This document shows positions 5,949-58,617 of a stretch of 60,935 nucleotides of DNA, piece after piece. How positions within the stretch are numbered: position 1 is the stretch's first letter; the number at the start of each line of letters is the position of its first letter. Under the pieces are notes generated by a model that was not told the DNA's origin, searched no databases, and was given only the letters and a program-made list of their open reading frames with translations. Source of the stretch: a candidate division WOR-1 bacterium RIFCSPLOWO2_02_FULL_46_20 (GTDB taxonomy: Bacteria > Margulisbacteria > WOR-1 > O2-12-FULL-45-9); NCBI GenBank assembly GCA_001771365.1, contig METP01000040.1, forward strand, positions 1 through 60,935, in the 5' to 3' direction. The position numbers were made by a program, and so were the translations under genes.

Positions 5949-5954
5949 TGTACC

Positions 5955-19370: not shown

Positions 19371-19909
19371 AATCCGTAATCCAGAAAATTCAATCTCCAA
19401 TAACTGATCAAGCGGTAAAAGCCTTAAATATTGGAGACAAAGTGTTAATTTCAGGTAAAATTATTGTGGCTCGGGATTCGGCTCATCAGCTTTTTGGCAA
19501 AAACCTACCTTTTAAACCCAGGGGCGCGACTTTGTACTACGCCTCCCCCAGCCCAACCAGGAAAGGCCAAATTATCGGCTCCATCGGCCCCACCACCTCT
19601 ACCCGCATGGATCGCTTTACCCCCGATCTACTGAAACTCGGGGTAAAAATAACCATTGGTAAAGGCTATCGTGGAAAAGAGGTAATTGCTGCCATGAAAA
19701 AATATAAGGCTGCTTATCTTGTTGTGCCAGGCGGTATTGCCGCCGCCAATTCAAAATATATTAAAAAATCAACCGTCATTGCCTATCCCGACCTCGGTTC
19801 CGAAGCGGTTTTGGAACTGGAGGTCGTCGACTTTCCAGCCATTGTTGCCATTGATTCCAAGGGTCATGACCTGTTTGTCCAAGGCAAAAAGAAATACAGT
19901 GTTAAATAG
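19367..19909 (+). CDS. Fe-S type hydro-lyase (class I fumarate/tartrate hydratase), beta subunit
   Basis: GPTTSTRMD motif, 180 aa, 4-nt overlap with the alpha subunit gene. Confidence 0.88.
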   Translation: MKSVIQKIQSPITDQAVKALNIGDKVLISGKIIVARDSAHQLFGKNLPFKPRGATLYYASPSPTRKGQIIGSIGPTTSTRMDRFTPDLLKLGVKITIGKGYRGKEVIAAMKKYKAAYLVVPGGIAAANSKYIKKSTVIAYPDLGSEAVLELEVVDFPAIVAIDSKGHDLFVQGKKKYSVK

Positions 19910-25624: not shown

Positions 25625-25697
25625 ACTCCCATGCTATATATCGTCAATTTCTAGCTCGGATTTCAAAATTTGCCCGCCATGATATAATAAATAATCT

Positions 25698-26567: not shown

Positions 26568-26602
26568 TCCGAAAGCTGTTGAATTCCCCTGTAGCCGTCT
26601 CC

Positions 26603-28746: not shown

Positions 28747-28749
28747 TAA

Positions 28750-29754
28750 TTACCGCACTTCTCCCTCAAGCGCTAATGTCGGTTTGCCGTTTATTGAAAA
28801 AGAGACATAACTGGTTGCCAGGCCAGGATCATTATAATAGGCATGGTAAGCATAATCTACTCGAAAACCAGCAGTTCCAAGCGATACTCCCGCCGATGGG
28901 TTCCAATTAGTTTGCGTGCCGGAGGATGCGTCAACACTCTGGTCCATCCCTGCTCTTAGCATAAAAAATTCATTCATTTTATATTCGGCACCTATGTGCA
29001 TGGTGACCGGCCGCCCGCTTTGCACTGGCAGATCGGCATCGTAGGCAATTAAAAGTTTATTCCCGAATCGCATTGGCTTGACGGCTATGCCAACTTTGTG
29101 CACGCTGGCGATGGCCTCTTCCGCACCACTTGAGTATCGCACCACTCCTCCCAAATCTACCGGAAGAAAATTCTGGCGGTTATAGCCAAAACTCAAATAA
29201 GGGTTATATATATATTTTATGCCAAAGTCTGAGCTCCAGCCGGTAGAAGTCTGTGTCGCCCCACCTGTCCAACCGCGGCTAAAATATTTTAGGTTTATGC
29301 CAAAAAAGACATTTCGGGAATATCCAAAAAATCTTGCCAGGGGGGTGCTGTAAGTTAAAACAAAAAGCGTATCATGATAATCGGCGAAAACACCCGTGGA
29401 ACCAACAAAAGTTAATACCTGGCTAACGCCGGTATTTACAAAACCCGCTCCCACCACCCCAAAAGAGCCAGGGATAACACCACAGTATTCAGTATAGTAA
29501 ACATCCCCCAAAAGATTTGTGTACATTGTCATCGCCTGAGGAGCTTTAATAGCCGCTATCCCTGCCGGATTTATAAAGGCGCCATCTGCATCATCAGCTA
29601 TGGCGGTATTTGCTCTGCCCATGCCCAAAGGCCGCGCCCCCCCACCAATGATCATTGGATCATCTGTTGTACCCACAATAGCGGAAATTGCCGGACAACT
29701 CCCAAAAGCAAGCAAGGTAAGCACCACCATAAAAACAATTGCTAAACGTATCAC
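28750..29754 (-). CDS. FadL/PorV-like outer-membrane beta-barrel protein
   Basis: Signal peptide, then the hatch motif GGGARPLGMGRANTAIADDADGAFINPAGIA (compare FadL [24 protein letters not shown]). Alternating aromatic beta-strands run to the C-terminus. Confidence 0.65.
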   Translation of the reverse strand: MIRLAIVFMVVLTLLAFGSCPAISAIVGTTDDPMIIGGGARPLGMGRANTAIADDADGAFINPAGIAAIKAPQAMTMYTNLLGDVYYTEYCGVIPGSFGVVGAGFVNTGVSQVLTFVGSTGVFADYHDTLFVLTYSTPLARFFGYSRNVFFGINLKYFSRGWTGGATQTSTGWSSDFGIKYIYNPYLSFGYNRQNFLPVDLGGVVRYSSGAEEAIASVHKVGIAVKPMRFGNKLLIAYDADLPVQSGRPVTMHIGAEYKMNEFFMLRAGMDQSVDASSGTQTNWNPSAGVSLGTAGFRVDYAYHAYYNDPGLATSYVSFSINGKPTLALEGEVR

Positions 29755-30890
29755 TGATGTATCACCCCATATTTCATCTGCTTAATAAATTCTTTCTGGC
29801 CATCAACTACGCGATAAATGCGAACAAAATAAACTCCGGCTCCAGCCACTGATTTAAAGGAGGTAATGCCATTCCAAACTACATTGTTTTCGCCGGCCTG
29901 CCCACCCTCGCTTCCCATGGGCAAAACTGTGGACCAAATCATTTCTCCTCTCATGGTGAAAACTTGAATCATAATCTCTGCATCCTGACTTAATTCGTAG
30001 GAAATACTGGCGGCCGCCGCTGGTATTTCGCCTTCAGGCATGCCAGGGATAGCCGTTGGTTTTGATATCTGGGCTTCCACCTCAAGCACCTCTTTTTCAA
30101 CTTTAAACCCTTCACTAAGGCTCCCACCTTTACCATCCTCATTTTCTACCTTAACATCCCAACGTCCGGCGGCTTTGCCTGTCAGATCAAACTGACAGGT
30201 GATCTTAGTTGACGATTTAACCACAATATTTGTGCCAATTATATCGCCCTCACCAGGCTTAGACAACATAGCCCTTGCCCCACTAATAAAATATTTTCCG
30301 GAAATTTCAACAGCGACATTACCGGTATCGTAGGCTTTTTTAGGGGTGATTCCTCCTACCTCCGGCCCACGATGACGTATATCTAAAGCAAGAGGCAGTG
30401 TGCCAGAGCGTCCATCAGGATTAGTTATGGTAATGCTCCACAATCCTTTTGTAACATCAGTTATATCAAAGAGACAAGTGATCTTGGTGGTGCTATGAAC
30501 TGTTACATTTGTGGCGGCAATATCTGCTTCCCCGGATGAGCTCAACTTTAAAGTCGCACCATCGACAAAATTATATCCGTTGACCGTAAGCGAAACTGAA
30601 CCATCATTTACCGCAGACTGCGGCCCAATTGACGTAATGTTGGGGGCTAGAATTACCAATGAGAGGCGAACACATTTTAAAAATCCTTCGCCGATTTTAT
30701 AATTTGAGTTGTAAGGTTCCCCCAAACGGAGCCCACGGGCAATCCCCCGAAGACTAAATGACGTTGAAGTGCCGACAGCTGTACCCGCGCCAAAAGCCTG
30801 GGCAGTAAGCTTATAACTAGTACTGTTACTTACCGCAAAAGAAGCACCACACCAAAGTATGGCTAAAACAATTAATACAGTTTTTTTCAT
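29751..30890 (-). CDS. Cell-surface protein: two IPT/TIG Ig-like repeats plus a FlgD-Ig / T9SS-CTD-like C-terminal domain
   Basis: Signal peptide and two ~85-aa repeats (ITSIGP...SLTVNGYNF...TKITCLFD...ITITNPDG, and ITPKK...AVEISGKYF...TKITCQFD...VKVENEDG). The C-terminus reads ISYELSQDAEIMIQVFTMRGEMIW...VVWNG...GVYFVRI. Confidence 0.7.
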   Translation of the reverse strand: MKKTVLIVLAILWCGASFAVSNSTSYKLTAQAFGAGTAVGTSTSFSLRGIARGLRLGEPYNSNYKIGEGFLKCVRLSLVILAPNITSIGPQSAVNDGSVSLTVNGYNFVDGATLKLSSSGEADIAATNVTVHSTTKITCLFDITDVTKGLWSITITNPDGRSGTLPLALDIRHRGPEVGGITPKKAYDTGNVAVEISGKYFISGARAMLSKPGEGDIIGTNIVVKSSTKITCQFDLTGKAAGRWDVKVENEDGKGGSLSEGFKVEKEVLEVEAQISKPTAIPGMPEGEIPAAAASISYELSQDAEIMIQVFTMRGEMIWSTVLPMGSEGGQAGENNVVWNGITSFKSVAGAGVYFVRIYRVVDGQKEFIKQMKYGVIHQ

Positions 30891-33844
30891 TTACCCGCCT
30901 TGGTTTGTTCTAATGCCGCGACTTTAGCAGATAACTCTTCAATTTTTTTCTGCTGTTCCTGAACAGTTTTAGCCAGCAACGCGGTTAAGTGTCCGTAAGA
31001 AACACTTAAATCTCCTTCCTCTCCATGGACAACTTCTGGAATTACTTCCTTCAGTTCTTGAGCGACAAACCCAATGTCAGCTTGGCCGGATTCTGTCCAC
31101 TGATAGTTAACCGGCCGCAACTTCATAAGCTCTTCTGTTCCATAATTAATAGCGCTAATATTAGTTTTTTTTGAGCGGTCCGAAGCATCTGTAAAAACTC
31201 CAGCCGCAGTCAGTTTTGCGCCTGAGTCGTCATAGATAGAATCGCCTGTACCGGCATTGTTTATCTCCAGGGCATACAAATTATTGGTGGCGTCATCGTA
31301 ATCTATCAGCACCCCTTTTGCGTTTGCGGCATTAGCTACTTCTACTTCTAGCCTGGCAAATGGTTCTATTGTCCCTATGCCTACTTGACCTAGGCTGTTT
31401 ATTCTCATTCTCTCAACAGCCGCAGCTTCGTTTCTCATCGTATGAAATACTAACGCGCCATCAGTTGAGCCATCGGTAGCGTCTTCCAACACTGCTCCAA
31501 TAGCGGCGATATTTTCTCTTTCATTCCCTCCGGTCTTATCGTTTTCCTGCCGGAAAGTTAATAGCGGGCCAGACCCAATAGCCGCTGTCCCTGTGACGGC
31601 ATGAGTGATTCCTGTTATCTTACTTAAACTGCTATTATTGCCATCATTACCAGCTATTTCAAACTTGGAATCAGGTATGCTAGTACAAAATCCCATTACG
31701 CCTGAAACCGGGTTCAACATTAAAAAGGTATTACCACCATCTCCTATCCAGATATTCTCGGCTACTCCGCTACCCCCCTTCTCTGTCAATATCTGAAAAG
31801 TACCGCCTGTAGTGTAAAACCTGAGTCTTTCGTAATTAGTCGTTTCATCTGCTGTGCCATACATGTATATGTCACTTGATAGCAGGTTGTATTTTAGAAT
31901 TCCTGTTGGGTCTATTTCTAAATTGCCGGAACTACCCACTTCAAAACTAACATAGTTACTCGCATCGTATCCAAGTCTCAATTGTTCAGTTGTACCAATA
32001 ACATGTAAAGCGGCTAAAGGCGCCGCCGTCCCGATACCGACGCTATCTGCAGATCCATCAACAAACAAAGTATTAGCATCAAAGTTCACATCATAGTCGT
32101 TTTGGGTTACTTCTAAAGTCGTATCCAGGGTTATAGTGTCAGCAAGCTGGGCAGCATTTATGGTATCAGCAGCAATAGCGCCAGAAGTTACTACCCCGGT
32201 CCCAAAATCTGCGGCAGCAATAGTTCCATCAACTATCTTGGCTGAAGTTACACTATTATCTCCAACAACTACAGCGGTTAAATTGGAACCATCCACTGCC
32301 GGCAGCCTGGCGCTTCCATCCAACTGTACAATTTTGCTTGCTGTTGTACCCACATCAACTGCTAAAGCAGATCCATTGCCTCCTGTTAATCCAGTTCCGG
32401 CAACATCGCTGCCTAATTTCGCGGCAGTTACGCTCGTCGCGGCTAACTGGGCTGTCCCGACGCCCCCCGCATCAATTGAGATTGTTCCGGTTGCGGTTAT
32501 TGGCCCGCCGATTAATCCGGTTCCGGTACTAACCGAAGTCACAGTTCCACTTGTTCCAGCTGCAGCAGTAATCTGAGTTGTTCCATCCGGGAATTTGATC
32601 CCGCCAGTTCCTTTAGATTCAATGGTTCCCGCAACTGTGAGCTTCGAAGCTGGCTCCGCGGTACCGACGCCAACTTTATTTGCCCCCGCATCAACATAAA
32701 GCGTATCCATATCCACTGCCATGGTTCCGGTTACGGTAAGGTCGCTCGGAAAAGTATAAACCCCGGCACCAAAGGTGCCAGTTGTAACATTGGCCGCCGC
32801 CAGGCTGGATATTGAAAGATTGAGTAATTGACTCCCATCCACTACCGGCAGCCTGGCGCTTCCATCTAACTGTATAATCTGACTTGCTCCAGTTCCTACG
32901 TCCAGTCTTGCGGTAGGAATAGTCCCTGCTCCAGAAGGTATGTTGGCCAACGAGGTTAAGGCTGCACCTGATACTTTCCCAGCTGTCGAGATCGTTGCTA
33001 ATTTAGTATCTACAATAGCCGCACCGGCATTAATATCCGCATTAACAATCTCTCCATCCAGTATCTTTACCGAGGTTACCGCATTGGTAGCAATCTTGGT
33101 CGCAATTATTCCATAGTCCGCAATTTGAGCAGTCCCCAAGTTTGTAAGATTTGCTCCATCAAGATTACTAAAATAAGCAGATGACAAAGCTGGAATTTTG
33201 CCTGTAGCAGAATCAATAGCCGCCACACTTAACTTGGCTGCGGTTACGGCTTCATTAGTAATCATGCCAGTAGTAATTGTCAAAGCATCAGAAGCATCTG
33301 CTTGATGTGAGGAAGCATGTGCCCCGGGAAGAATAGTTCCGATCACCTTACTCCCGGACAGAGAGACAATTTTGGCGTCCGTCACTGAAGAGTCGGCAAG
33401 TTTGGCGGTCGTAACCGCTTTATCAGAGATTTTAGCAGTACTAATTGAACCATCATCAACACTATCCGCCAGGGCTGATCTAAAAGCGTACCCTACCGAA
33501 ACAAGCTGGGTGCGCGGACTTAGGGTTTCATCTCCGATAGAAACCTCAATATATCTGGAGGAAGCGCTAAAAACACCTGAAGATAAAGCCGTAGCACCGC
33601 CTAGAAGAACACTGAAGACGCCCTGGCTATCGGGGGTAACGCTGTGGCTTTCTGGCCCCCAAAGTTTATTTCCGTCCGTAGCAGCGTCATAAAGGCTAAA
33701 ACTTATGGTTTTCGCGCTGGTGATAGCGGTGCCACTGGCATCAGTCAACCTCCCTTCATATGAAATTTTTTCAGGCACCGCCCCCCACCCCACACCCATT
33801 ACCACCAAACTAGAAATCAAGAAACAAAAAATTCTCTTTAACAT
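30887..33844 (-). CDS. Secreted tail-fibre-like protein with C-terminal peptidase-S74 intramolecular chaperone domain
   Basis: Signal peptide; many A/T/G/S/V-rich repeats (..AVT.AKLA..SVT.AKI..); a duplicated QLDGSARLP[AV]VDGS module. The last ~98 aa (SDRSKKTNISAINYG...LRPVNYQW...IGFVAQELKEVIPEVV...VSYGHLTALLAKTVQEQQKKIEEL) match the autoproteolytic chaperone domain. AAGGAGG lies upstream of the ATG. Confidence 0.8.
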   Translation of the reverse strand: MLKRIFCFLISSLVVMGVGWGAVPEKISYEGRLTDASGTAITSAKTISFSLYDAATDGNKLWGPESHSVTPDSQGVFSVLLGGATALSSGVFSASSRYIEVSIGDETLSPRTQLVSVGYAFRSALADSVDDGSISTAKISDKAVTTAKLADSSVTDAKIVSLSGSKVIGTILPGAHASSHQADASDALTITTGMITNEAVTAAKLSVAAIDSATGKIPALSSAYFSNLDGANLTNLGTAQIADYGIIATKIATNAVTSVKILDGEIVNADINAGAAIVDTKLATISTAGKVSGAALTSLANIPSGAGTIPTARLDVGTGASQIIQLDGSARLPVVDGSQLLNLSISSLAAANVTTGTFGAGVYTFPSDLTVTGTMAVDMDTLYVDAGANKVGVGTAEPASKLTVAGTIESKGTGGIKFPDGTTQITAAAGTSGTVTSVSTGTGLIGGPITATGTISIDAGGVGTAQLAATSVTAAKLGSDVAGTGLTGGNGSALAVDVGTTASKIVQLDGSARLPAVDGSNLTAVVVGDNSVTSAKIVDGTIAAADFGTGVVTSGAIAADTINAAQLADTITLDTTLEVTQNDYDVNFDANTLFVDGSADSVGIGTAAPLAALHVIGTTEQLRLGYDASNYVSFEVGSSGNLEIDPTGILKYNLLSSDIYMYGTADETTNYERLRFYTTGGTFQILTEKGGSGVAENIWIGDGGNTFLMLNPVSGVMGFCTSIPDSKFEIAGNDGNNSSLSKITGITHAVTGTAAIGSGPLLTFRQENDKTGGNERENIAAIGAVLEDATDGSTDGALVFHTMRNEAAAVERMRINSLGQVGIGTIEPFARLEVEVANAANAKGVLIDYDDATNNLYALEINNAGTGDSIYDDSGAKLTAAGVFTDASDRSKKTNISAINYGTEELMKLRPVNYQWTESGQADIGFVAQELKEVIPEVVHGEEGDLSVSYGHLTALLAKTVQEQQKKIEELSAKVAALEQTKAGK

Positions 33845-46313: not shown

Positions 46314-47129
46314 TTAAGCTTTTTGCGTCCCAAACCTCGTTAACGTTACCCCACCCAAGCCAACACAACCAGCCACTGCTTTAACAATAAAACCGACAAA
46401 GGGGACCAGGCCAATTAAAGACAAAATAACAACACCAAGCAGGGTTTCAATCATCAGAGTCATTTTCTTTTGCTTAAAGGCGAGCAAAACTTTTTTGCCA
46501 ATAAAATTGGCTGCAGCTAAGTAGCCAATTAAGCCGGCAGAAACAAAAACAATGCCCCAAACAGGGATTAAAACTATGCCGACAATTGAAATCGCCAAAA
46601 GAATGGCGATCGGCACAAAAAGGAGTAAGGCTAACAAACCGATCCCAAAGTTTTTGCCAGGCTCTTTTTGGATTATACCTGAGATATTGCCCAATTGTGT
46701 GGGAAACAGTGCAACAAGAATAATAACTAAAACGAGAAAGCCAACAAAGCTTAAGATGCTAAACACAATCATCCCCTTGCCCACAAAAGCCCCCATGGCC
46801 AATCCACCGGGCAAGGCAATTTCTGTAACATCCCCTTTGACCATAGCCCCGGGACCTTTTTCAATATTACCTCCAACAGATACAACATTGCCATCGACCA
46901 AAGCCCCATCTTTTAGATAGACCGACCCGCCCACTGCCACGACATCTTCCAAAACTTTACCGTAAACAGTAACCGAGCCGCCGACTGACACGGCAGACTT
47001 TACTTCTATCCCAACCGGGACCTCAATATTTTTACCAACTTTGACCAACGCTTGCTGGTCCGCCAAGGCCACACTGCCAAAACAAACAACAGTCCCGATC
47101 AAAAGCAACACAAAGACTTTTCTTAACAT
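46314..47129 (-). CDS. Bactofilin-like (beta-helical repeat) domain protein with C-terminal transmembrane region
   Basis: Signal or anchor sequence, a repetitive VGGSVTVYGKV..DVVAVGGSVYL..GNVVSVGGNI segment, then 4-5 hydrophobic helices. GGAGG lies 7 nt upstream of the ATG at 47129. Confidence 0.6.
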   Translation of the reverse strand: MLRKVFVLLLIGTVVCFGSVALADQQALVKVGKNIEVPVGIEVKSAVSVGGSVTVYGKVLEDVVAVGGSVYLKDGALVDGNVVSVGGNIEKGPGAMVKGDVTEIALPGGLAMGAFVGKGMIVFSILSFVGFLVLVIILVALFPTQLGNISGIIQKEPGKNFGIGLLALLLFVPIAILLAISIVGIVLIPVWGIVFVSAGLIGYLAAANFIGKKVLLAFKQKKMTLMIETLLGVVILSLIGLVPFVGFIVKAVAGCVGLGGVTLTRFGTQKA

Positions 47130-47237
47130 CAAAACACCTCCAGGATTTGAGTGAATTATACGCACAGAAAAAAAGAGAGTCAACCGGAAATTTCGCACGC
47201 AATCTTTCACTGTTCTGTTATAATATATGTTGTCCTC

Positions 47238-47879
47238 ATGAAAACACTTTGGAACAGCCTGAGAAGATTATATTTTAATTATGTTCATTATAATGACCGA
47301 AGAGCAATCTGGAACGCCATAAGAAAGAGCTTAAGGCTTGAGGCCAGCCAGGCTCCTCTCCTCTCCTTCGCACCGGGAGAAACATCCAAAGCCAAACCGC
47401 GCCGGGAAAAAGAGGGTTTTTTCGCCAAATACTGTCAAGGGCAGGGCTTAGATATCGGCTATGGCGGCGATTTATTATCGTCCAACTGTCAGGGCTGGGA
47501 TTATGCGGACGGTAACGCGCAATATTTAAAAGGTGTGCCTGACTCAAGCTTTGACTTTGTCTACGCTTCGCACATTTTGGAGCATGTGCGCAATCCAACC
47601 GTAGCCATCAAAAACTGGTGGCGGGTACTAAAGACCAACGGCTACCTTATTGTTGCAATACCAGAGAGAAATCTATATGAGAAAAGAACCAGGCTCCCTT
47701 CTCACCGTAATAACGACCACAAACATTTTTTCCTGTTGGAAAATGACGAAGCCCCCGACACCATAGGGCTATGCCCCTTTATCAAGCGAACGCTCCCCCA
47801 GCATCAAATAGTTTACGCCAGGGTTTGCGGCAGCAACGACGAATACGCCATTGAAGCGGTGGTTAAAAAGATCAAATAG
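47238..47879 (+). CDS. Class I SAM-dependent methyltransferase
   Basis: Motif I GLDIGYGG and post-I/II FDFVYASHILEH. The start is set at MKTLWNSL. Confidence 0.75.
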   Translation: MKTLWNSLRRLYFNYVHYNDRRAIWNAIRKSLRLEASQAPLLSFAPGETSKAKPRREKEGFFAKYCQGQGLDIGYGGDLLSSNCQGWDYADGNAQYLKGVPDSSFDFVYASHILEHVRNPTVAIKNWWRVLKTNGYLIVAIPERNLYEKRTRLPSHRNNDHKHFFLLENDEAPDTIGLCPFIKRTLPQHQIVYARVCGSNDEYAIEAVVKKIK

Positions 47880-47925
47880 GCCAATGGTTTTCTGCAAAAT
47901 ATGTTCAGACACCACCCGCGCCATA

Positions 47926-48558
47926 TTAACTTATTATCTGGATCACTATCTGGTAGCCGTTATAAAGCACTTTTTGACCTGTCTTCCTGGCCCAATCGAG
48001 CACATATTTTCCTTTGCCAACATCGGTAAAGTTATCATCAATCGCGATCAAAGGTTCAATGCTTTGTCTCAGTATTTCTTTAATACTTCCCAACTCTTTT
48101 AAGTGATGCGCCATGCTGGGCTCAGGATTGCTTGGATCAAGATCGTAACTATCGAGATAAACAAGATCAACCGGCGCCTCTATTTTTTTAAGCTTGGTTA
48201 CGGAATCACCCAACATTTGTACCAGCGGGACGGTCGACCATGGAAATTTTTTTCTCAATATTTTTTTTGACCTGTTTAAATGAAAAATATTGTTATCAAG
48301 GGAGATTAGCTTGCCGTCGAAGAAATTTAAAAATTCGTAAAAAAGCAGCGAGCTCTGCCCTGCCCCCCAATCATTTTCCTGGCGCTGACAGCCCGTCTCA
48401 ACAATTACAAAGTTATTTGATTTTTTGAAAAGCAAGGATTCAAAAATTATTTTAAATCCACTAAACCGATCAACCCGTTGCCCCCGGCTATAAAGCCCTT
48501 CCGACAAAGGCTGCTTATAATTATCTTCAAAATATTTAAGATACTCTTTTGCCTGCAT
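47926..48558 (-). CDS. Class I SAM-dependent methyltransferase (O-methyltransferase-like)
   Basis: FVIVETGCQ (motif I-like) and VDLVYLDSYD motifs. 210 aa. Confidence 0.65.
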   Translation of the reverse strand: MQAKEYLKYFEDNYKQPLSEGLYSRGQRVDRFSGFKIIFESLLFKKSNNFVIVETGCQRQENDWGAGQSSLLFYEFLNFFDGKLISLDNNIFHLNRSKKILRKKFPWSTVPLVQMLGDSVTKLKKIEAPVDLVYLDSYDLDPSNPEPSMAHHLKELGSIKEILRQSIEPLIAIDDNFTDVGKGKYVLDWARKTGQKVLYNGYQIVIQIIS

Positions 48559-48632
48559 ATGGAACCCTTATAATAACACGTCCGGGGGGCGGTGGCTCCG
48601 GGAGCGCGATACCAAAATTTCCTGCGGAAATT

Positions 48633-48703
48633 TTGCCGGGCAGGGACTCGAACCCCGATAGGTAGAATCAAAATCTACTGGCTTGCCATTAGCCGACCCG
48701 GCA
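48633..48703 (-). tRNA. tRNA-Gln (anticodon TTG)
   Basis: The reverse complement folds as TGCCGGG/TC/GGCT-AATGGCA-AGCC/A/GTAGA-TTTTGAT-TCTAC/CTAT/CGGGG-TTCGAGT-CCCTG/CCCGGCA/A. The U1-A72 pair is typical of bacterial tRNA-Gln. Confidence 0.85.
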
Positions 48704-48751
48704 ATATTAGTTTGTCGATTATAACAGCCTACCTGAAATTTTTCAATAAAA

Positions 48752-51700
48752 ATGGCGACAAAGAGAGAGATGTTGACACAATTTCAACCAGGCAGATCAA
48801 GCGCTCTGGACACCACTTGGTGGCAGAGGCACGGCTCCCGCGCGCTCACCTGGATATTTCACAAAATTCTTAAGCGGCCCAATCGCCAGGCTCTAGCCGA
48901 GAGTTTAAAGGAAGACAGTTCAAAGCTTGGCCTGGAACAAAAAAAACAACTCCTCCAATTATTGCGGGAACACAAGCTAATTTACCCGAAATATACAAGC
49001 CGCAGCATTTACGACTTGCCCCTGGAAGAATTAAAACACTATCACCTGAGAAAATTAATATCCAGAAAACAGTTGGAAGGTTTTATTGAAGCTTTCAATG
49101 ACACATTCAAAGAGCTTTTCATTATTAACTTCTCAGCCGGCCAATTTAGCGTCACCCATCCTCCTGGAGAGCAAAGCGGCCTGGCAATTGAACCACTAAA
49201 TCTCGAAGATCCAATAGTTACGCCGAATTTGGCTGCTTATGTCCACAATGTTTTGCTGGCCACCAACCGCCCCCTCTCTTTTCTTGAAATCAAAGCGGAA
49301 ATAGCAAAACAATTGCTAAGAGGGGAAAGAATCAAGGAAAAAGATCTTGGTATCGCCATTGGGGATCTCAAAGCCAGGAAAGTTATTTTCGCTACCAGCG
49401 GCACAAAAAAAAACGGCCCTCGTTATTTTTTAAAAGACCGCCTGGATGAAGTACTCCATCGCACCGTTTATCGTTATAAAAGCAACGAAGGCGAAACAGA
49501 ATACATTTATAACAAAGAAGCCAATCAATTGATCGAAGAAGGAAAAGCTTTCGCGCTGATGGACCCAGACGGCCACACCTCTGTCATGCCAGAAACAGGC
49601 TTTAGAAAAGAAGCAACAAACTATGTTCAGGTAAAAACTTTGCAAAAAATAGCGCTCTGGGTGCACCAGGAAAACATACCTGAACTGATAGAACAAGGGC
49701 ATCTAGTAAAGGGGTTGGAAGACGGCACCTTTGCAGAATGCTATGTGCAGGCCAAAGCCCAACAACATCCTGAATTTGCCTGCTTAATATTCAATCGTTT
49801 TGCCCGGGTTTATCTCACCCGCAAATATGCAGACAATTTTGATGAAAAATACGCGCAACTTAGAGCCGCCTTTGAAGCCCGGTTAACCTTTGGAGGCATG
49901 GAACCAATATTGGACCTGTTGCACGAAGCCAGAACTGTAGCCAGTATAGGCGGTAATTCCACCACCGTGGTTATTGCCTTATTCAAACACGCCAAAGCCC
50001 TGCCTCTTCTTGAAGAAACAGGCTGTTTTCGCCCAGATGACCTCCAGGACATTGAGCATTGCTTCCGCCGCTTTGATTTTGTCGATCGCTTTCCTTTATT
50101 GTTTACTCCCGGATACAGCTATTCTCTACAGAATTTTATACACTTTATTTACGACCAAACCGTGCACTTTGAATCATTCCAATTGCTGTTGACAGGCAAG
50201 TTAAGCTCCTTAAGGCGCCTAGCTAACGCTCGCCTTCCCCTGGTTGACCCGCTTAGAAGACAAATTGAATTGATTTATGCTCCTCTGGCCGAAAAATGCG
50301 GCTATATCGACCTGGCCAACAATATGCGCGATTTTGTAGCCAAGCTCACCGATCCGGAAGCTTATGCCGCCACCTTAGCGATCATGGAAAAAGCCATGGG
50401 AATGGGATATAACCAGGCACGGCTGCACGTCGCAACGCAAGCCGCGGAGATAAAGGCCATCATCGCGGAAAACAGCGGCTCGATTGTTTCAGACACCTTC
50501 ACCAGAATTAAAGAGGTTGCCGCTCATCAGAAAAAAAACCAACAAAGGGGAAACAGGGAAGCCCCTCGCACTACTGATTTTATGGGCATAAGATACATTT
50601 GTAAAACTATAGGCGAAGCCTATCAAATAGCGGCTGAGCTCCAAAGCCACCTCGACCTTGCCCAGGCAAAAGAGATCCCTCCTGACAAAAAGCCTATTCA
50701 AGACAACCTTCAACGCGCCAGAAAAAGCGGCTGGCAGGGGTGGCGGGGCTATTTTTATGACCCATCACAGAATCAAGGTGCGGCTAAGCGGCGAGTTTTC
50801 TCCATACAGATTCTAACTGAAGAGATGTTAAAAGAAGATAAAAAGGGCCAATCCGCCCATTGGTGGATGAAAGCCGCTCGTGCCGCAGAAGTGGCCAGCA
50901 GGGAGCTTTCCAGTGTCTACAATCAACAGCATTTTGACCCTCCCCCCATAGACGAATATACCGGCAATGCAGAAGATGATTATTATATTGATCGCAGCGA
51001 AGCCAATAAATATCAGCGTGTTTTTGTCTATTTTGACCACTGGCAGGACGATTCTTTTTCAATTAAAGGCTCAACCTTCCCCGGCCACGGCTTCCTTCCT
51101 ATGTTTCGACTAGGACGGGGCGCGATCCTGGCCGATGCCGCGGCTTTTCGAGCGTTTGATACCAGCCTGGTTACAGATGTTGATTTCGCGGAAGTCTATC
51201 GTTTTGACCAAGATGGGCACGGAAAAATAATTTTTACCAGCGCAAGACAAGGAGCTTCGCGCGCGGCTCTGACAGAGACCGTCCAAAATGCTTCATTAAT
51301 TGTTTTTAAAACAGGAAGAGAGTTAACAGAAGAAGAATTAATAAAGATTTTACGATCCACAAAGAGTTTTAGAACCTCTTTCCTGGCCAAATTAAGACTG
51401 GAATTAAACAAACCACACAAGCCAAGCCGGGAACAAATAAAGACCAGGGGTCAGGATGATCCTATAGCAAAGAAAATTGATACTGCGGCAAAGAGGCAAC
51501 AGATAATAACGCTCACCGGTCTCCGGGATGAAAATGAAGTTTTTGAAGCCATCGGCCTGGGCCTAATAGATCTAGCTACAATTGAAGAAGCCTTAGGCAT
51601 ACTTACTACCAGGGTAGATCTTTCCACTTCGGGAGAAAATTTATCGTTAAAAATTGACACGCCGGATTGTTTGGGGCTCTTTTCCTATATCCTTAACCAG

Positions 51701-52177
51701 CAAACACCAGAGGCTTTTCACATTCTCGCTGCGAGCGCCCAGGTAATAACCCGGGCCCAGGGTGTTTCTCCTGCCACTTTGCAAATAACGCTTAGGCCCA
51801 AAGGCGCAAAAACCCCCTCTTTAAACTGTATGCAGGTGCGGACCGATATCGAGAACTTTCATCGAAGAGGAGAAACCTTTACTGACAGGCACAGGAGGGG
51901 GCAGGAAACAACATCTTTAAAAATAAACTTGTCTTTAACCAATCGCGGAAATTGGAATATCCTGCGCGAGATCGCTCGCCTTGCCGCCGAGTTTGACTTT
52001 AATATTTTAAGCTTCAATCTCCCTAACGCGTCGGAATCTAAAGATGGCGAAATTATCATAGAAGCTACTCAGCAAGTCGGGACAAAAGAAGATATTGTTG
52101 AACACATGAAAACTGCCTTTCACGAGGGGCTCCAATCATTCAAGGGATTCCGCTTTAGTCTTGAGGAAATCAGTTAG
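48752..52177 (+). CDS. Highly divergent long RelA/SpoT-homologue-like protein (N-terminal extension, degenerate HD, synthetase-like, TGS-like and ACT-like regions)
   Basis: IELIYAPLAEKCGY, TRIKEVAAHQKK, TDFMGIRYI...EAYQIAAELQSHL, FSIQILTEEM and SAHWWMK line up in order with the RSH motifs IYAPLAHRLG, RxKxxxSIxxKM, DxxGxRxI...CY...G..H, E[IV]QIRT and AAHWxYK. A TGS-like VFVYF...LIVFKTG segment and a C-terminal ACT-like segment follow. Confidence 0.65.
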   Translation: MATKREMLTQFQPGRSSALDTTWWQRHGSRALTWIFHKILKRPNRQALAESLKEDSSKLGLEQKKQLLQLLREHKLIYPKYTSRSIYDLPLEELKHYHLRKLISRKQLEGFIEAFNDTFKELFIINFSAGQFSVTHPPGEQSGLAIEPLNLEDPIVTPNLAAYVHNVLLATNRPLSFLEIKAEIAKQLLRGERIKEKDLGIAIGDLKARKVIFATSGTKKNGPRYFLKDRLDEVLHRTVYRYKSNEGETEYIYNKEANQLIEEGKAFALMDPDGHTSVMPETGFRKEATNYVQVKTLQKIALWVHQENIPELIEQGHLVKGLEDGTFAECYVQAKAQQHPEFACLIFNRFARVYLTRKYADNFDEKYAQLRAAFEARLTFGGMEPILDLLHEARTVASIGGNSTTVVIALFKHAKALPLLEETGCFRPDDLQDIEHCFRRFDFVDRFPLLFTPGYSYSLQNFIHFIYDQTVHFESFQLLLTGKLSSLRRLANARLPLVDPLRRQIELIYAPLAEKCGYIDLANNMRDFVAKLTDPEAYAATLAIMEKAMGMGYNQARLHVATQAAEIKAIIAENSGSIVSDTFTRIKEVAAHQKKNQQRGNREAPRTTDFMGIRYICKTIGEAYQIAAELQSHLDLAQAKEIPPDKKPIQDNLQRARKSGWQGWRGYFYDPSQNQGAAKRRVFSIQILTEEMLKEDKKGQSAHWWMKAARAAEVASRELSSVYNQQHFDPPPIDEYTGNAEDDYYIDRSEANKYQRVFVYFDHWQDDSFSIKGSTFPGHGFLPMFRLGRGAILADAAAFRAFDTSLVTDVDFAEVYRFDQDGHGKIIFTSARQGASRAALTETVQNASLIVFKTGRELTEEELIKILRSTKSFRTSFLAKLRLELNKPHKPSREQIKTRGQDDPIAKKIDTAAKRQQIITLTGLRDENEVFEAIGLGLIDLATIEEALGILTTRVDLSTSGENLSLKIDTPDCLGLFSYILNQQTPEAFHILAASAQVITRAQGVSPATLQITLRPKGAKTPSLNCMQVRTDIENFHRRGETFTDRHRRGQETTSLKINLSLTNRGNWNILREIARLAAEFDFNILSFNLPNASESKDGEIIIEATQQVGTKEDIVEHMKTAFHEGLQSFKGFRFSLEEIS

Positions 52178-52991
52178 CCGTTTTATAAAATTGTTTAATC
52201 CGTTGCTCTTGCCCGGCAGTTAGCTTCTGCTTCCTTCGCTTCATCATTGCCTTAGCACCGGCTAAAAATTTCTCTAATTCATATTTCTCCCCACCCCAAC
52301 TAAACGCTGGCACTTTTTTGGGCGTCACCCCGCCGCCAAACACATTCGCCCCCACCCCGATCACCGCACCGGTTGTAATCAGCGTGCCAATGCCGGTTTT
52401 TACAAAATCACCAATAAAACAGCCCATAAATGTCTGGCCTGTGTCAACGCCTCCAACTTTAACTGAGCCGTAATTATTTTTTAGATTGGAGTTGGTCGTC
52501 CCTGCCCCCAGATTTACCCATTCGCCTATATAAGAATGACCAATAAAACCGTAATGCGCCTTGTTAGAATAGCCGTGGAAAATTGAATGCATCACTTCGC
52601 CGCCAATCCGGCACTCCGGACCGATGGATAACGGCCCTCGAAGATAACTTAGCGGCTTAATGATCGTTCCCTTGCCAATATAAATCGGCCCCTGACGCGC
52701 GTCCAGTACGCAGCCGGCCTCAACCTCGGCACCTTTCTCAATTAAAACATTTTTTTTATCATAAAAAACTACAGAAGAGTGAACCTTGCCTCTGATTCCT
52801 TTGCCCAAAACCTTTAAGTCTTTTTCCAGGTCTTGCTTAAGATAAACAATTAAATCCCAAACGTGCTTAATTTTTCTTTCCGGGTGATCCTTGAGCATCC
52901 TGGCCCCGCACCTCAAATCTCCCTTTGCCCTTAAACAATCAAGGGAATATAATTGGGATTCCGAATTTTTCATTAATTCGTCATTAGTCAT
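52170..52991 (-). CDS. Hexapeptide-repeat (left-handed beta-helix) transferase-like protein
   Basis: A run of [LIV]G-type hexapeptide repeats (IGPECRIGGEVMHSIF...IGHSYIGEWVNLGAGT...). It resembles the C-terminal half of sugar-nucleotidyl/acyl transferases. Confidence 0.6.
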   Translation of the reverse strand: MTNDELMKNSESQLYSLDCLRAKGDLRCGARMLKDHPERKIKHVWDLIVYLKQDLEKDLKVLGKGIRGKVHSSVVFYDKKNVLIEKGAEVEAGCVLDARQGPIYIGKGTIIKPLSYLRGPLSIGPECRIGGEVMHSIFHGYSNKAHYGFIGHSYIGEWVNLGAGTTNSNLKNNYGSVKVGGVDTGQTFMGCFIGDFVKTGIGTLITTGAVIGVGANVFGGGVTPKKVPAFSWGGEKYELEKFLAGAKAMMKRRKQKLTAGQEQRIKQFYKTAN

Positions 52992-57399: not shown

Positions 57400-58617
57400 T
57401 TATCGACCCAACAACCTGTCCAGTATTATAGCATTTGCGGAGCGAACTGACAAATGATTATACTCATCTTTTCCGATAATTGGCTCTAAAATCAGGTCAA
57501 ATCGCTCAAAAACTTCGTCTGCTATACCCCAACCTGTACCAATCACTAACAAATATGGCTGCTTTGCCCCGCTCATTTCCCTTTTTAAATCCTTAAATTT
57601 AGTCTTACCGACTGCCTTTGCCGACGTTCCAACTACCGTTGGCTTCTGGCCTTCAGCTCGGATTATTTCATCGATTGTTTCGTCTAACGATTCTTTAATA
57701 GAGATCAACTTAAACGCTTCCGCCCGCGTCCAATTAAACTCAAGGCTGCTATCGTCCATCCAAAAGCTGCGAATAAGCTCGGCAAACTCTCTTTGCGCCG
57801 GCAAGGGATTAACCACATAATATTTTTTAATCCCAAAAGTGCAGGCGCATCTGGCAATATCGTGCAGATCAAACCCGGTAATACAGGTTGAGACGATATC
57901 TTGTCTTTTGTTGTACACGGGGTAATGCAGCAAAGCAAGATAGACATTGGCCTTAGCCAATAAGTCAGGCCGGCGCTGTCGCGTCTTTATTAGCGCCTGT
58001 TCGCGTCGCCACTTGGCAATCTCCGCATGGTTGCCGGAGAGTAAAACGTCAGGGACCTTCTTGCCGGAAAACTCCTCCGGCCTGGTGTAGCTTGGGAAAT
58101 CAAGCAAGCCATCATAATAAGAATCTTGCTTAACCGACTCGGATTCTTTAACCACGCCGGGGATGTGCCTGGCGACCGCGTCAATCAAAACCATGGCAGG
58201 TATTTCTCCTCCGGTTAGAACATAATCCCCAATTGATATTTCTTCATCAACCATTTCCCTCACCCGTTCGTCTACCCCTTCATAATGCCCGCAGAGTAGA
58301 ACTAGATGTTCCTGTTTCGCCAGCTCATTAACCTTTTGCTGGGTAAGCTGTTTGCCCGTCGGGCACAATAAAATGACGGACGAGGGACGATTGACGATGG
58401 ACGATAATGCCCGAGCAACAACATCAACTTTCATGACCATTCCCGGTCCGCCGCCATACGGAGTATCATCTGCGGTTTTGTGTTTATCCGAGGTAAAATC
58501 GCGGAGATTAACCACCTCTAAACTTAAAAGGCCCTTTTGCTGGGCCTTTTTAAGTAAACTCTCATTTGTTGGTCCCTGAAACATTTCAGGGAATAGGGTC
58601 AAAACATCAATCCGCAT
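57400..58617 (-). CDS. trmD: tRNA (guanine37-N1)-methyltransferase TrmD fused to a second SPOUT-like domain (Tm1570 / Methyltrn_RNA_4-like)
   Basis: Residues 1 to ~235 are canonical TrmD ([33 protein letters not shown]). An extra ~170 aa ([28 protein letters not shown]...LLVIGTGWG...[14 protein letters not shown]) resembles the stand-alone SPOUT protein encoded next to trmD in Thermotoga. Confidence 0.85.

What the first reader, a model, noticed from the sequence alone, without database searches (positions are those of the whole stretch)
48752..52177. 1141-aa RelA/SpoT-like protein with ~450-aa novel N-terminal extension and substituted catalytic motifs
Seen in sequence: ordered matches to long-RSH landmarks. 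These are IELIYAPLAEKCGY (end of the HD domain); TRIKEVAAHQKK and TDFMGIRYI...EAYQIAAELQSHL (synthetase core, about 50261-50875); FSIQILTEEM where RSH enzymes have E[IV]QIRT; SAHWWMK for AAHWxYK; a TGS-like block VFVYF...FRLGRGAILADAAAF...LIVFKTG (about 51017-51315); and a terminal ACT-like block. The His-Asp hydrolase signature is not visible. The conserved acidic residue and Arg of the EIQIRT strand read S and L. YQSLHT has no clear counterpart. The N-terminal ~450 aa has no RSH equivalent and includes a winged-helix-like stretch (LSFLEIKAEIAKQLL...DLKARKVIFAT). Inference: this is a stringent-response-type protein that is catalytically rewired, a pseudo-enzyme or sensor, or an alarmone enzyme with altered chemistry.
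Basis: partly seen in the sequence, partly recalled or inferred. Interest (0 to 1): 0.65.

Follow-up and report, generated by a model that had tools for sequence, protein, structure and literature searches.

The report
Rewired RelA/SpoT-like protein of Saganbacteria
This 1141-residue protein from an uncultured groundwater bacterium is a true but very divergent relative of the stringent-response enzymes RelA/SpoT; its hydrolase half is dead, it has an extra winged-helix front end, and the essential catalytic glutamate of its synthetase pocket is a serine while a new glutamate sits at a neighbouring pocket position.

Summary
The ORF (48752-52177, +) is real and intact in several independent metagenomes. 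It is a full-length long RelA/SpoT homolog (RSH). Profile-profile alignment to canonical long RSHs gives probability 100%, E 3e-44, and is collinear from HD to ACT. The AlphaFold model (pLDDT 84.5) best matches full-length SpoT, RelA and Rel.

YQSLHT does have a counterpart (GWQGWRGY, Tyr to Trp). The RSH-free N-terminus is about 340 aa, not 450, because residues 341-520 are a degenerate HD domain.

The protein is the positional ortholog of a Saganbacteria/Margulisbacteria-specific long RSH. Distant orthologs keep the catalytic Glu (RelSeq E323). This subclade (15 of 15) has Ser/His/Ala there, and 13 of 15 have gained a Glu at the phosphate-contacting position after K243. ATP/Mg ligands and the stacking aromatic residue are conserved. 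Active-site positions are more conserved than the rest of the domain.

The tRNA-sensing TGS histidine and the zinc-finger cysteines are absent. The two leading readings, close in likelihood, are a rewired but working pyrophosphokinase with a relocated carboxylate, and an ATP-binding pseudo-synthetase. I class it as a new variant of a known kind, of moderate interest.

The parts
48752..52177 (+). Complete ORF of 1141 aa plus TAG stop; divergent long RelA/SpoT homolog ('A-type')
48812..49156 (+). aa 21-135: clade-specific N-terminal helical domain plus beta-hairpin (TWWQRHGSRALTW...NR...HYHLRK...AGQFS). Also found at the N-terminus of the short ~530-aa C-type paralogs. No known relative.
49220..49456 (+). 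aa 157-235: winged-helix domain (NRPLS motif; topology H-S-H-H-S-S)
   Evidence: Hop2 winged helix 2mh2 E 1.3e-4; MCM4 winged helix 0.003; ZBP1 Z-alpha 0.01; TBPIP, Pfam; secondary structure
49457..49771 (+). aa 236-340: four ~25-aa beta-hairpin-plus-helix repeats. P0003 and P0005 carry about 60 extra residues here, which I read as two more units. No family match.
49772..50311 (+). aa 341-520: pseudo-HD domain. The helical fold is kept. Residues equivalent to RelSeq H53, H77-D78, E81-D82 and D144 are all replaced.
50312..50911 (+). aa 521-720: RelA_SpoT synthetase (SYN) domain. Together with the pseudo-HD domain it is the most conserved of the named domains.
50504..50515 (+). R585-I-K587-E588, equivalent to RelSeq R241-P-K243-H244. 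The ATP-phosphate ligands are kept. The clade-specific Glu588 sits at a phosphate-contacting position.
50576..50593 (+). D609...R614, equivalent to RelSeq D264...R269 (Mg2+ ligand and Arg). D609 is invariant in the subclade (15 of 15); R614 is Arg in 14 of 15 (Lys in P0015).
50726..50749 (+). S659-G-W661-Q-G-W-R665-G, equivalent to NGYQSIHT (acceptor 'G-loop'). The stacking Tyr308 is Trp, and His312 is Arg.
50801..50818 (+). S684-I-Q686-I-L688-T689, equivalent to E323-I-Q-I-R327-T. The catalytic Glu is Ser (codon TCC, at least 2 substitutions away from GAA/GAG).
51008..51319 (+). aa 753-856: TGS-like beta-grasp domain with inserted loops. D795 matches the Asp of DFAY. There is no conserved counterpart of the CCA-stacking His (EcRelA H432).
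51320..51601 (+). aa 857-950: helical linker domain, aligned with the RSH alpha-helical domain
51602..51877 (+). aa 951-1042: beta-beta-alpha-beta-beta-alpha domain at the position of the RSH zinc-finger/conserved-cysteine domain. It lacks the CCxPxPGD...H...C residues and has an ACT-like 'IDTPDCLGLFSYIL' start.
51899..52174 (+). aa 1050-1141: C-terminal ACT/RRM-like beta-alpha-beta-beta-alpha-beta domain
52170..52991 (-). Convergent hexapeptide-repeat transferase gene whose 3' end overlaps the RSH gene by 8 bp. It is a conserved neighbour (synteny marker) and no functional link is implied.

Best explanation
WHAT IT IS (shown; confidence about 0.95)
This is the Saganbacteria/Margulisbacteria-specific ortholog of a long RelA/SpoT homolog. 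Its architecture, N- to C-terminus, is:
- novel N-terminal domain
- winged helix
- four beta-hairpin/helix repeats
- pseudo-HD
- SYN
- TGS-like
- helical
- Cys-less equivalent of the zinc-finger domain
- ACT/RRM
It sits in a conserved chromosomal slot: FtsK ... RSH, then convergent hexapeptide transferase, ackA, apbE and OTCase. The hydrolase is dead, as in E. coli RelA.

HOW IT MOST LIKELY WORKS (inferred; the confidence value refers to this part)
The SYN pocket is still functional.
- It keeps the ATP/Mg2+ ligands (R585, K587, K595, D609, R614), the base-stacking aromatic residue (W661), Q686, T689 and the HW motif.
- The general-base/Mg2+ ligand Glu of all other RSHs (RelSeq E323) is Ser684.
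- In the same subclade a Glu has appeared at position 588 (RelSeq His244), the residue after the phosphate-binding Lys. That position contacts the phosphates of bound pppGpp in RelSeq.

I infer that the catalytic carboxylate has been relocated. On this reading the protein remains a Mg2+-dependent pyrophosphokinase of the alarmone-synthetase type. Its acceptor site is remodelled: K297, Y299, H312 and R327 are all replaced, and the G-loop reads GWxGWRGYF.

Activation is probably not by deacylated tRNA on the ribosome, because the TGS histidine and the zinc-finger cysteines have no conserved counterpart. Control would instead come from the clade-specific N-terminal module (winged helix plus repeats) and the ACT-like C-terminal domains.
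For: Identity
- Pfam RelA_SpoT scores above its cut-off.
- The family profile hits 1vj7 at E 1.6e-10.
- hhalign of the family (23 sequences) against canonical long RSHs (31 sequences) gives probability 100%, E 3.2e-44, 634 aligned columns, collinear from HD to ACT.
- The AF2 model has pLDDT 84.5 and pTM 0.70. Its best Foldseek hits are full-length SpoT 7qpr (E 2e-18, 863 columns), ribosome-bound RelA 5iqr, Rel 6yxa and RelSeq 1vj7.

Orthology
- The same flanks occur in five other genomes.
- Both flanks of the window match the locus of P0023 (WOR-1 DG_54_3), which keeps Glu323.
- An NJ tree shows the Ser clade as monophyletic and nested among Glu-containing relatives.

Pocket maintained
- R241, K243, K251, D264 and R269 are kept in at least 13 of 15 members. 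W308 is kept in 15 of 15.
- The 19 active-site positions have a mean major-residue frequency of 0.775, against 0.573 for the whole domain. None of 20000 permutations reached that value.
- SYN and pseudo-HD are the most conserved of the named domains.

Swap
- Position 244 is Glu in 13 of 15 A-type members and in 0 of 45 others.
- Position 323 is Ser/His/Ala in 15 of 15 A-type members and Glu/Asp in all others.
- His244 is listed among the residues that hydrogen-bond the phosphates of pppGpp in the RelSeq synthetase site, and Glu323 lies within ionic reach of Lys243/Lys251 (PMC13299517).

CTD
- The TGS histidine and ZFD cysteines are not conserved. The role of this histidine is described in PMC7797070.
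Against: - Glu323 is regarded as essential. RelSeq E323Q and B. subtilis Rel E324V are synthetase-dead (PMC13299517; PMC7098656).
- No RSH is known to work without this Glu (my knowledge).
- Two of 15 subclade members have no carboxylate at either position: P0011 (Ser/Ser) and P0014 (Thr/Ser). So whatever function persists there does not need Glu588.
- The two changes each arose once, at the base of one clade. Their coupling is therefore a single evolutionary event and is not statistical proof.
- I could not read model coordinates, so the Glu588-Ser684-Mg2+ geometry is unverified.
- Glu588 lies on the ATP-phosphate side and may not replace the proposed general-base role toward the acceptor 3'-OH.
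- No expression or biochemical data exist. Only DNA metagenomes hold the sequence.
Confidence: 0.45

Rival explanations
1. Doubly dead long RSH (an '[hs]' type). The SYN domain is a pseudo-synthetase that still binds Mg-ATP and/or an alarmone but does not catalyse transfer. The protein acts as a nucleotide sensor, scaffold or regulator. Its output would go through the winged-helix/repeat module or through partner proteins. Any alarmone would come from the Glu-containing short C-type or other paralogs found in the same phylum.
For: - Glu323 is replaced in 15 of 15 members, and mutating it kills known enzymes.
- P0011 and P0014 have no carboxylate at 244 or 323, yet keep intact full-length genes.
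- Several pppGpp/GDP-contacting residues are replaced: W185N, K297Q/E, Y299N, H312R, R327L.
- Paralogous RSH types with intact Glu exist in Margulisiibacteriota at another locus (hisG/panD).
- Conserved binding residues combined with a lost catalytic residue is the usual pattern of ligand-binding pseudoenzymes (established knowledge).
Against: - A clade-specific gain of a Glu next to the phosphate-binding Lys, kept in 13 of 15 members, is hard to explain for a pure binder. A carboxylate there should repel phosphates unless it holds a metal (inference).
- The acceptor loop is more conserved in this clade than in the Glu-containing orthologs.
- Co-occurrence of a catalytically intact paralog in the same genome was not shown. 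None is in this window, and none was retrieved for this MAG.
Confidence: 0.4
2. An ordinary, catalytically intact Rel/RelA that merely carries an N-terminal fusion. On this view the apparent substitutions are alignment artefacts.
For: The domain order is fully collinear with canonical long RSHs. D264, R241, K243 and K251 are intact.
Against: - Three independent alignments place Ser684 on Glu323: HMMER profile against 1vj7, MAFFT with 60 relatives and hhalign. The flanking Q686 and T689 anchor the strand.
- There is no acidic residue at -2 or +2 on that strand.
- The HD catalytic residues are all missing.
- TIGR00691 scores 32 bits against a cut-off of 499.
Confidence: 0.03
3. A mobile or defence-associated RSH, either a toxSAS/CapRel-like effector or part of a defence island. 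The suggestion comes from the tRNA gene and the variable region immediately upstream.
For: - tRNA-Gln lies 47 bp upstream.
- In the P0002 genome the upstream side carries restriction-modification and AbiTii genes.
- There is a weak PADLOC hit to PDC-S33 at 13.6 bits.
Against: - The gene itself is a fixed part of a conserved core-genome slot in at least 6 genomes. Only the upstream neighbours vary.
- It has the long multi-domain architecture and no bicistronic antitoxin partner.
- The PADLOC score is insignificant and covers only the generic SYN fold.
- GC content is the same as its surroundings.
Confidence: 0.03
4. The match to RSH motifs is coincidental and the protein is unrelated.
For: Single-sequence phmmer against PDB finds nothing. 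The Pfam score is only 2.6 bits above its threshold.
Against: Profile and structure evidence is overwhelming.
Confidence: 0.01

Closest known systems
E. coli RelA, type RelA[hS] (monofunctional long RSH with a pseudo-hydrolase domain)
   Same: - Same domain order: HD-like, SYN, TGS, helical, ZFD position, ACT/RRM.
- The HD domain is kept as a fold but its catalytic residues are lost (Atkinson 2011, PMC3153485).
- The ATP ligands and the Asp (RelSeq D264) are kept.
   Different: - The catalytic Glu (RelSeq E323) is Ser.
- Tyr308 is Trp, His312 is Arg and Arg327 is Leu.
- There is no conserved counterpart of the CCA-stacking TGS histidine (H432) and no ZFD cysteines.
- It carries an extra ~340-aa N-terminal module with a winged helix.
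- Sequence similarity is far below the family cut-off: TIGR00691 32 bits against 499, NF008124 13 bits against 728.
Glu-containing 'B-type' orthologs in sister lineages, e.g. KPJ69739.1 of candidate division WOR-1 bacterium DG_54_3 (P0023). It is annotated only as a hypothetical or RelA/SpoT-domain protein.
   Same: - Same genomic slot on both flanks.
- Same length and full architecture, including the N-terminal domain, winged helix, repeats, pseudo-HD, Trp308, Met/Leu327 and the Cys-less CTD.
   Different: - B-type proteins keep Glu323 and have Ser/Thr/Ala/Gly/Asn (Asp in P0021) at position 244.
- The window's A-type has Ser323 and Glu244, plus a distinct GWxGWRGYF acceptor loop.
- Identity between the two types is only about 19-22%.
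Long RSHs with a degenerate synthetase: Moraxellaceae SpoT[Hs]
   Same: A long RSH in which conserved SYN sites have been lost during lineage-specific evolution (PMC3153485).
   Different: Those proteins keep an active hydrolase and coexist with an active RelA. Here the hydrolase is dead too, and the SYN pocket is not decaying but strongly conserved.
Small alarmone synthetases and toxSAS (RelQ, RelP, CapRel, FaRel2)
   Same: They share the SYN fold (Foldseek E 1e-4 to 1e-5; PDB profile hits 6fgj and 8pu3).
   Different: Those are single-domain proteins and keep the catalytic Glu (for the relatives sampled; otherwise my knowledge). The toxSASs lie in toxin-antitoxin operons (PMC7229694). This protein is a core-genome, multi-domain long RSH.

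Membership tests
RSH superfamily (RelA_SpoT/SYN nucleotidyltransferase fold) | Significant match to the SYN domain profile or fold | tested here: met
   PF04607 scores 29.6 bits against a GA of 27, and 4 of 4 close homologs match with a best E of 1.1e-9. The profile hits 1vj7 at E 1.6e-10. Foldseek hits RelSeq, Rel and the SAS structures.
Long RSH (Rel/RelA/SpoT architecture) | Collinear HD - SYN - TGS - helical - ZFD - ACT/RRM domain order | tested here: met
   hhalign gives probability 100%, E 3.2e-44, query 365-1107 against template 41-716. Foldseek aligns 863 columns to full-length SpoT 7qpr. Pfam itself detects only the SYN domain.
Long RSH (Rel/RelA/SpoT architecture) | Conserved Cys/His of the ZFD ('CC') domain (CCxPxPGD...H...C) | tested here: not met
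   The aligned region (aa 951-1042) has no conserved Cys or His. Two members (P0003, P0005) lack the last two domains altogether.
Catalytically competent (p)ppGpp synthetase | Mg2+-binding Asp (RelSeq D264) and ATP-phosphate ligands R241, K243, K251 | tested here: met
   D609, R585, K587 and K595 are conserved in at least 13 of 15 subclade members.
Catalytically competent (p)ppGpp synthetase | Catalytic Glu of the E-x-Q-x-R-T strand (RelSeq E323; E323Q and E324V are inactive) | tested here: not met
   Ser684 in the window; Ser/His/Ala in 15 of 15 A-type members; Glu/Asp in all 45 other relatives. Essentiality is from PMC13299517 and PMC7098656.
Catalytically competent (p)ppGpp synthetase | Acceptor (guanine nucleotide) site: stacking Tyr308 plus K297/Y299/K304/N306/H312/R327 | tested here: inconclusive
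   An aromatic residue is kept as the invariant Trp661. The other contacts are replaced or variable: Q650, N652, R657, S659, R665, L688. Substrate cannot be deduced from sequence.
(p)ppGpp hydrolase (HD domain) | Metal and catalytic residues H53, H77-D78, E81-D82, D144, N148 (RelSeq numbering) | tested here: not met
   All are replaced and not conserved in A-, B- and C-type proteins. HD_4 is detected only weakly, at E 0.0068, in 2 of 4 homologs.
Ribosome/deacyl-tRNA-activated stringent factor (RelA/Rel mechanism) | TGS histidine that stacks on the tRNA CCA end (EcRelA H432, BsRel H420) | tested here: not met
   It aligns to an unconserved position next to an 11-residue insertion. The nearby conserved residue is Glu814. 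The role of the histidine is from PMC7797070. Alignment confidence in this stretch is low.
Ribosome/deacyl-tRNA-activated stringent factor (RelA/Rel mechanism) | Binding to the ribosomal A site and activation by starved ribosomes | not testable with these tools
   Needs biochemistry or cryo-EM.
toxSAS / defence RSH | Small single-domain SYN protein in a conserved bicistronic toxin-antitoxin or defence operon | tested here: not met
   It has the long architecture and a core-genome synteny, with no conserved upstream or downstream partner other than convergent housekeeping genes. PADLOC gives only 13.6 bits.
Winged-helix (Hop2/MCM-WH/Z-alpha-like) domain, aa 157-235 | Profile match and H-S-H-H-S-S topology | tested here: met
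   2mh2 at E 1.3e-4, MCM4 at 0.003 and ZBP1 at 0.01. TBPIP in Pfam at 0.0066 in 2 of 16 members. Nucleic-acid binding itself was not tested.

The most novel reading that the evidence does not exclude
This would be a long RSH whose catalytic carboxylate has migrated from the beta-strand position (E323) to the loop after the phosphate-binding Lys (E588), with the acceptor loop rebuilt as GWxGWRGYF. It would then make a product other than canonical (p)ppGpp, such as a different pyrophosphorylated nucleotide or a non-nucleotide acceptor. It would be switched by its winged-helix/repeat N-terminal module binding nucleic acid rather than by starved ribosomes. That would amount to a previously unseen input-output logic for a stringent-response enzyme in a phylum sister to Cyanobacteria.
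Probability: 0.2. Interest if true: 0.75.

Novelty: new variant of a known kind. Interest (0 to 1): 0.55.

Why it matters
Long RSH enzymes are the master switches of bacterial starvation signalling. Their catalytic Asp/Glu pair and their ribosome/tRNA sensing elements are treated as near-universal.

This protein belongs to an uncharacterised RSH radiation found in Margulisbacteria and Saganbacteria and in many contigs of unknown taxonomy:
- long A- and B-type proteins of about 1100 aa
- short C-type proteins of about 530 aa
- further odd forms

The members looked up are annotated at most generically (hypothetical, RelA/SpoT-domain, HD-domain or (p)ppGpp-synthetase-type protein). The papers I could search do not mention them.

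Within one orthologous gene, a subclade has replaced the supposedly indispensable Glu, yet the rest of the pocket stays under selection and a Glu has been gained next door. That gives two possible outcomes, both useful:
- a natural experiment on whether the RSH active site tolerates relocation of its carboxylate
- the first long RSH in which both catalytic halves have become sensors

It also bears on how lineages sibling to the Cyanobacteria regulate growth arrest.

Tried and rejected
- Single-sequence phmmer against PDB found nothing. Only profiles worked.
- The first AlphaFold run, with 4 sequences, was poor (pLDDT 56) and I did not use it.
- A word-indexed homolog search with the 23-sequence alignment added no new family members.
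- The GTDB genome scan and the metagenome scan returned only loci I already had. I therefore could not inspect the rest of this MAG for a second RSH.
- A search with the C-type alignment retrieved no C-type protein named for this MAG. This is inconclusive.
- There is no other RSH in the 60.9-kb window.
- The N-terminal domain (aa 21-135) and the beta-hairpin/helix repeats gave no credible Pfam or PDB match.
- Foldseek output is dominated by RSH hits, so the N-terminal module could not be fold-matched separately.
- Literature searches for Margulisbacteria or Saganbacteria together with ppGpp, stringent response or RelA found nothing relevant. The supplementary tables of the RSH classification paper are not held.
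- Only DNA metagenomes contain the sequence, so there is no expression evidence.
- I considered and rejected four readings: assembly or sequencing error at codon 684 (TCC is at least 2 changes from a Glu codon, there are no variants there, and the Ser is conserved in orthologs), a defence/toxSAS role (and synteny), an ordinary Rel with a fusion, and chance motif order.

Full report
**1. The observation**

The ORF 48752-52177 (+) encodes 1141 aa. It differs at four residues from the database protein 'hypothetical protein A3J44_04465' of candidate division WOR-1 bacterium RIFCSPHIGHO2_02_FULL_45_12. NCBI taxonomy places that organism in Candidatus Saganbacteria, within the Cyanobacteriota/Melainabacteria group.

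Independently assembled contigs from four groundwater or soil metagenome runs carry the same intact gene. They show 8 SNPs, four at third codon positions and four conservative replacements. None affects codons 588 or 684. Ser684 is encoded by TCC, at least two substitutions away from a Glu codon. The feature is therefore real and not an assembly artefact.

**2. Is it an RSH?**

Pfam finds only RelA_SpoT, just above threshold: 29.6 bits against 27, aa 584-708. NCBIfam's long-RSH model scores 32 bits against a cut-off of 499. phmmer against PDB finds nothing.

Profiles settle the question.
- A 4-sequence family profile hits the RelSeq catalytic fragment 1vj7 at E 1.6e-10 over residues 141-354, and also hits RelA and Rel structures.
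- An exhaustive profile search of 1.84 billion representatives gives 1063 hits. These run from close relatives through a large divergent clade down to canonical long RSHs.
- hhalign of a 23-sequence family alignment against 31 canonical long RSHs gives probability 100%, E 3.2e-44 and 634 aligned columns. Window residues 365-1107 align with template residues 41-716, that is, from the HD domain through the ACT domain.
- With the deeper alignment, AlphaFold gives pLDDT 84.5 and pTM 0.70.
- The best PDB fold matches are full-length SpoT (7qpr, E 2e-18, 863 columns), ribosome-bound RelA, B. subtilis Rel and the RelSeq NTD.

**3. Domain map (window aa)**

- 21-135: helical domain plus hairpin, with no known relative.
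- 157-235: winged helix. Hop2 winged helix 2mh2 at E 1.3e-4, plus MCM4 and Z-alpha winged helices.
- 236-340: four beta-hairpin-plus-helix repeats. Two homologs carry about 60 extra residues here.
- 341-520: pseudo-HD.
- 521-720: SYN.
- 721-752: a clade-specific conserved QxFD...Y linker.
- 753-856: TGS-like beta-grasp.
- 857-950: helical domain.
- 951-1042: a beta-beta-alpha-beta-beta-alpha domain in the place of the zinc-finger domain.
- 1050-1141: ACT/RRM.

The RSH-free N-terminal extension is therefore about 340 aa.

**4. Catalytic residues**

I aligned 60 relatives with RelSeq and cross-checked.

Hydrolase:
- The residues equivalent to H53, H77-D78, E81-D82 and D144 are all replaced and are not conserved.
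- This makes the domain a pseudo-hydrolase, as in E. coli RelA[hS] (PMC3153485).

Synthetase, residues kept:
- R241 is R585, K243 is K587, K251 is K595, D264 is D609 and R269 is R614.
- NGYQSIHT corresponds to SGWQGWRG, so Tyr308 is the invariant Trp661.
- Q325 is Q686 and T328 is T689.
- AAHWxYK corresponds to SAHWWMK.

Synthetase, residues changed:
- E323 is Ser684 and R327 is Leu688.
- According to Hogg et al., as summarised in PMC13299517, D264 and E323 are the two essential carboxylates. E323Q is inactive.
- B. subtilis Rel E324V is also synthetase-dead (PMC7098656).

**5. Evolutionary context**

The relatives fall into tiers.
- A-type: 15 cluster representatives of about 1100 aa when full-length. 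The named members are Margulisiibacteriota or WOR-1. This group includes the window's protein.
- B-type: about 1100 aa with the same architecture, for example KPJ69739 of WOR-1 DG_54_3.
- C-type: about 530 aa, consisting of the same N-terminal domain, pseudo-HD and SYN but no CTD. It also occurs in Margulisiibacteriota.
- Further odd forms.
- Canonical RSHs.

Trp308, Leu/Met327 and the pseudo-HD are shared by A, B and C types. Only the A-type lacks Glu323: Ser in 13 members, His in 1 and Ala in 1. All 45 other sequences have Glu, or Asp in one case. In an NJ tree the A-type is monophyletic and nested among Glu-containing relatives.

The A- and B-types are positional orthologs. The window reads ABC transporter, FecCD, binding protein, ARMT1, FtsK, a variable region with tRNA-Gln, the RSH, then convergent hexapeptide transferase, ackA, apbE and OTCase. 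The B-type locus of P0023 has the same genes on both sides. Four other A-type loci share the downstream block.

The C-type genes sit elsewhere, between hisG and panD, so they are paralogs. The Glu-to-Ser change is therefore a derived state within a vertically inherited core gene.

**6. Is the pocket decaying?**

It is not. Within the A-type, SYN and pseudo-HD are the most conserved of the named domains, at mean pairwise identity 0.37-0.38 against 0.20-0.30 for the other named domains. Nineteen active-site positions have a mean major-residue frequency of 0.775 against 0.573 for the whole domain. None of 20000 permutations reached that value. The Glu-containing B-type shows a similar excess.

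There is also a reciprocal change. The residue after the phosphate-binding Lys (RelSeq His244) is Glu in 13 of 15 A-type proteins, and is never Glu in the 45 others, where it is most often Ser. In the RelSeq-pppGpp structure, His244 is listed among the residues that bond the alarmone's phosphates. Glu323 lies within ionic reach of Lys243 and Lys251 (PMC13299517).

The acceptor loop is also A-type-specific and tightly conserved as GWxGWRGYF.

**7. Interpretation**

What is shown:
- It is a bona fide, lineage-specific long RSH ortholog.
- Its hydrolase is dead.
- Its SYN pocket is maintained under selection.
- The canonical catalytic Glu is missing.
- Its N-terminal module contains a winged helix.

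What is inferred (confidence 0.45): the carboxylate has been relocated to position 588, and the protein still catalyses Mg2+-dependent pyrophosphoryl transfer, probably with altered acceptor binding. This is analogous in principle to the catalytic-residue migration known in other enzyme families (my knowledge).

The main rival (0.40) is an ATP- or alarmone-binding pseudo-synthetase that acts as a sensor or regulator. Three points favour it:
- Glu323 is known to be essential.
- P0011 and P0014 have no carboxylate at either position.
- Glu-containing paralogs exist in the phylum.

The two changes each occurred once, so their coupling is suggestive and not statistical proof. I could not inspect model coordinates.

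**8. Regulation**

The TGS histidine stacks on the tRNA CCA end in RelA/Rel, and H432E or H420E abolishes activation (PMC7797070). It has no conserved counterpart here. The conserved cysteines and histidine of the zinc-finger domain are also absent. Two homologs lack the last two domains entirely.

Canonical activation by starved ribosomes is therefore unlikely, though it remains untested. The clade-specific N-terminal domain is shared with the CTD-less C-type, which suggests it works together with the catalytic core. The winged helix and the ACT-like domains are the candidate input modules (inference).

**9. Comparison with known systems, and novelty**

The closest described kind is RelA[hS]. 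The loss of conserved SYN residues recalls Moraxellaceae SpoT[Hs] (PMC3153485). The current classification counts 13 long-RSH, 30 SAS and 11 SAH subfamilies (PMC7229694). I could not check whether this clade is among them, because the supplements are not held.

I found no paper linking Margulisbacteria or Saganbacteria with ppGpp or RSHs. The named database entries I looked up are 'hypothetical' or carry only generic RelA/SpoT-domain, HD-domain or (p)ppGpp-synthetase-type labels.

The protein is not a defence or toxSAS element (and synteny). I rate it a new variant of a known kind. It is of moderate-to-good interest for RSH specialists and is directly testable by simple biochemistry.

Noticed in passing
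window 46314-48704: The stretch between ftsK and the RSH gene is variable between genomes. In this window it holds a membrane protein with VGGSV-type repeats (46314-47210, -), two small methyltransferase-like genes (47151-47879 +; 47926-48558 -, no Pfam hit) and tRNA-Gln (48632-48704, -). In the P0002 genome (L001) the same side carries restriction-modification, AbiTii and GIY-YIG genes. In P0023 (L008) ftsK is directly adjacent. It looks like an insertion hotspot next to a fixed core gene.
   Followed up: partly
window 52170-52177 (and L001, L006, L008, L014): The RSH gene and the convergent hexapeptide/NTP_transf_4 gene overlap at their 3' ends by 4-8 bp in five of six genomes, leaving no room for a terminator between them. 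The window's copy of that neighbour is 273 aa and matches only Hexapep. Some orthologs are 361 aa with an NTP_transf_4 domain.
   Followed up: partly
proteins P0020-P0054 (C-type); loci L010-L013: There is a family of ~530-aa proteins with the same novel N-terminal domain, pseudo-HD and SYN, with intact Glu323 and Trp308 and no C-terminal domains. It sits in a conserved hisG - (long PRPP synthetase) - gene - small ORF - panD context, and at least one member is from Margulisiibacteriota. It is probably an active, unclassified small or medium RSH.
   Followed up: partly
proteins P0041 (5805 aa), P0060 (1975 aa), P0065, P0088, P0123; P0048/P0051/P0057: The exhaustive search also recovered giant proteins of 1.5-5.8 thousand aa with an embedded RSH HD/SYN-like module. 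It recovered ~770-aa HD+SYN proteins with apparent N-terminal signal peptides as well, for example from 'Candidatus Orphnella occulta'. These are unusual RSH architectures.
   Followed up: no
window 57400-58617 (-): TrmD (tRNA m1G methyltransferase) and a Methyltrn_RNA_4 domain are fused in one 405-aa ORF here. In the syntenic locus L006 they are two separate adjacent genes (212 and 184 aa).
   Followed up: no
window 22574-33844 (-): A block of large genes with little or no annotation: a 1016-aa ORF with no Pfam hit; a TPR/zinc-ribbon/AAA_22 STAND-like ATPase (26603-28048); two ORFs with no hit; a TIG-domain protein; and a 985-aa protein ending in a Peptidase_S74 intramolecular-chaperone domain, as in phage tail-spike or fibre proteins. 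It may be a surface-fibre or prophage-remnant cluster.
   Followed up: no
window 2635-3759 (+): A Fic/DOC family protein with an N-terminal DUF4172 domain, a putative AMPylase or toxin-like enzyme.
   Followed up: no
window 5874-10391 (+): Sigma-54 (rpoN) is followed by two sigma-54-dependent response regulators. The second (9111-10391) shows no Fis-type HTH_8 domain in Pfam. The listed rpoN ORF start (TTG at 5874) overlaps tRNA-Met (5859-5932, -), so the true start is probably further downstream.
   Followed up: no
window 19719-20666 (+): An ORF that matches only the middle of the SBP_bac_5 solute-binding family (profile positions 196-349) and overlaps the end of the fumarase beta-subunit gene. 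It may be a truncated gene or a mis-called start.
   Followed up: no
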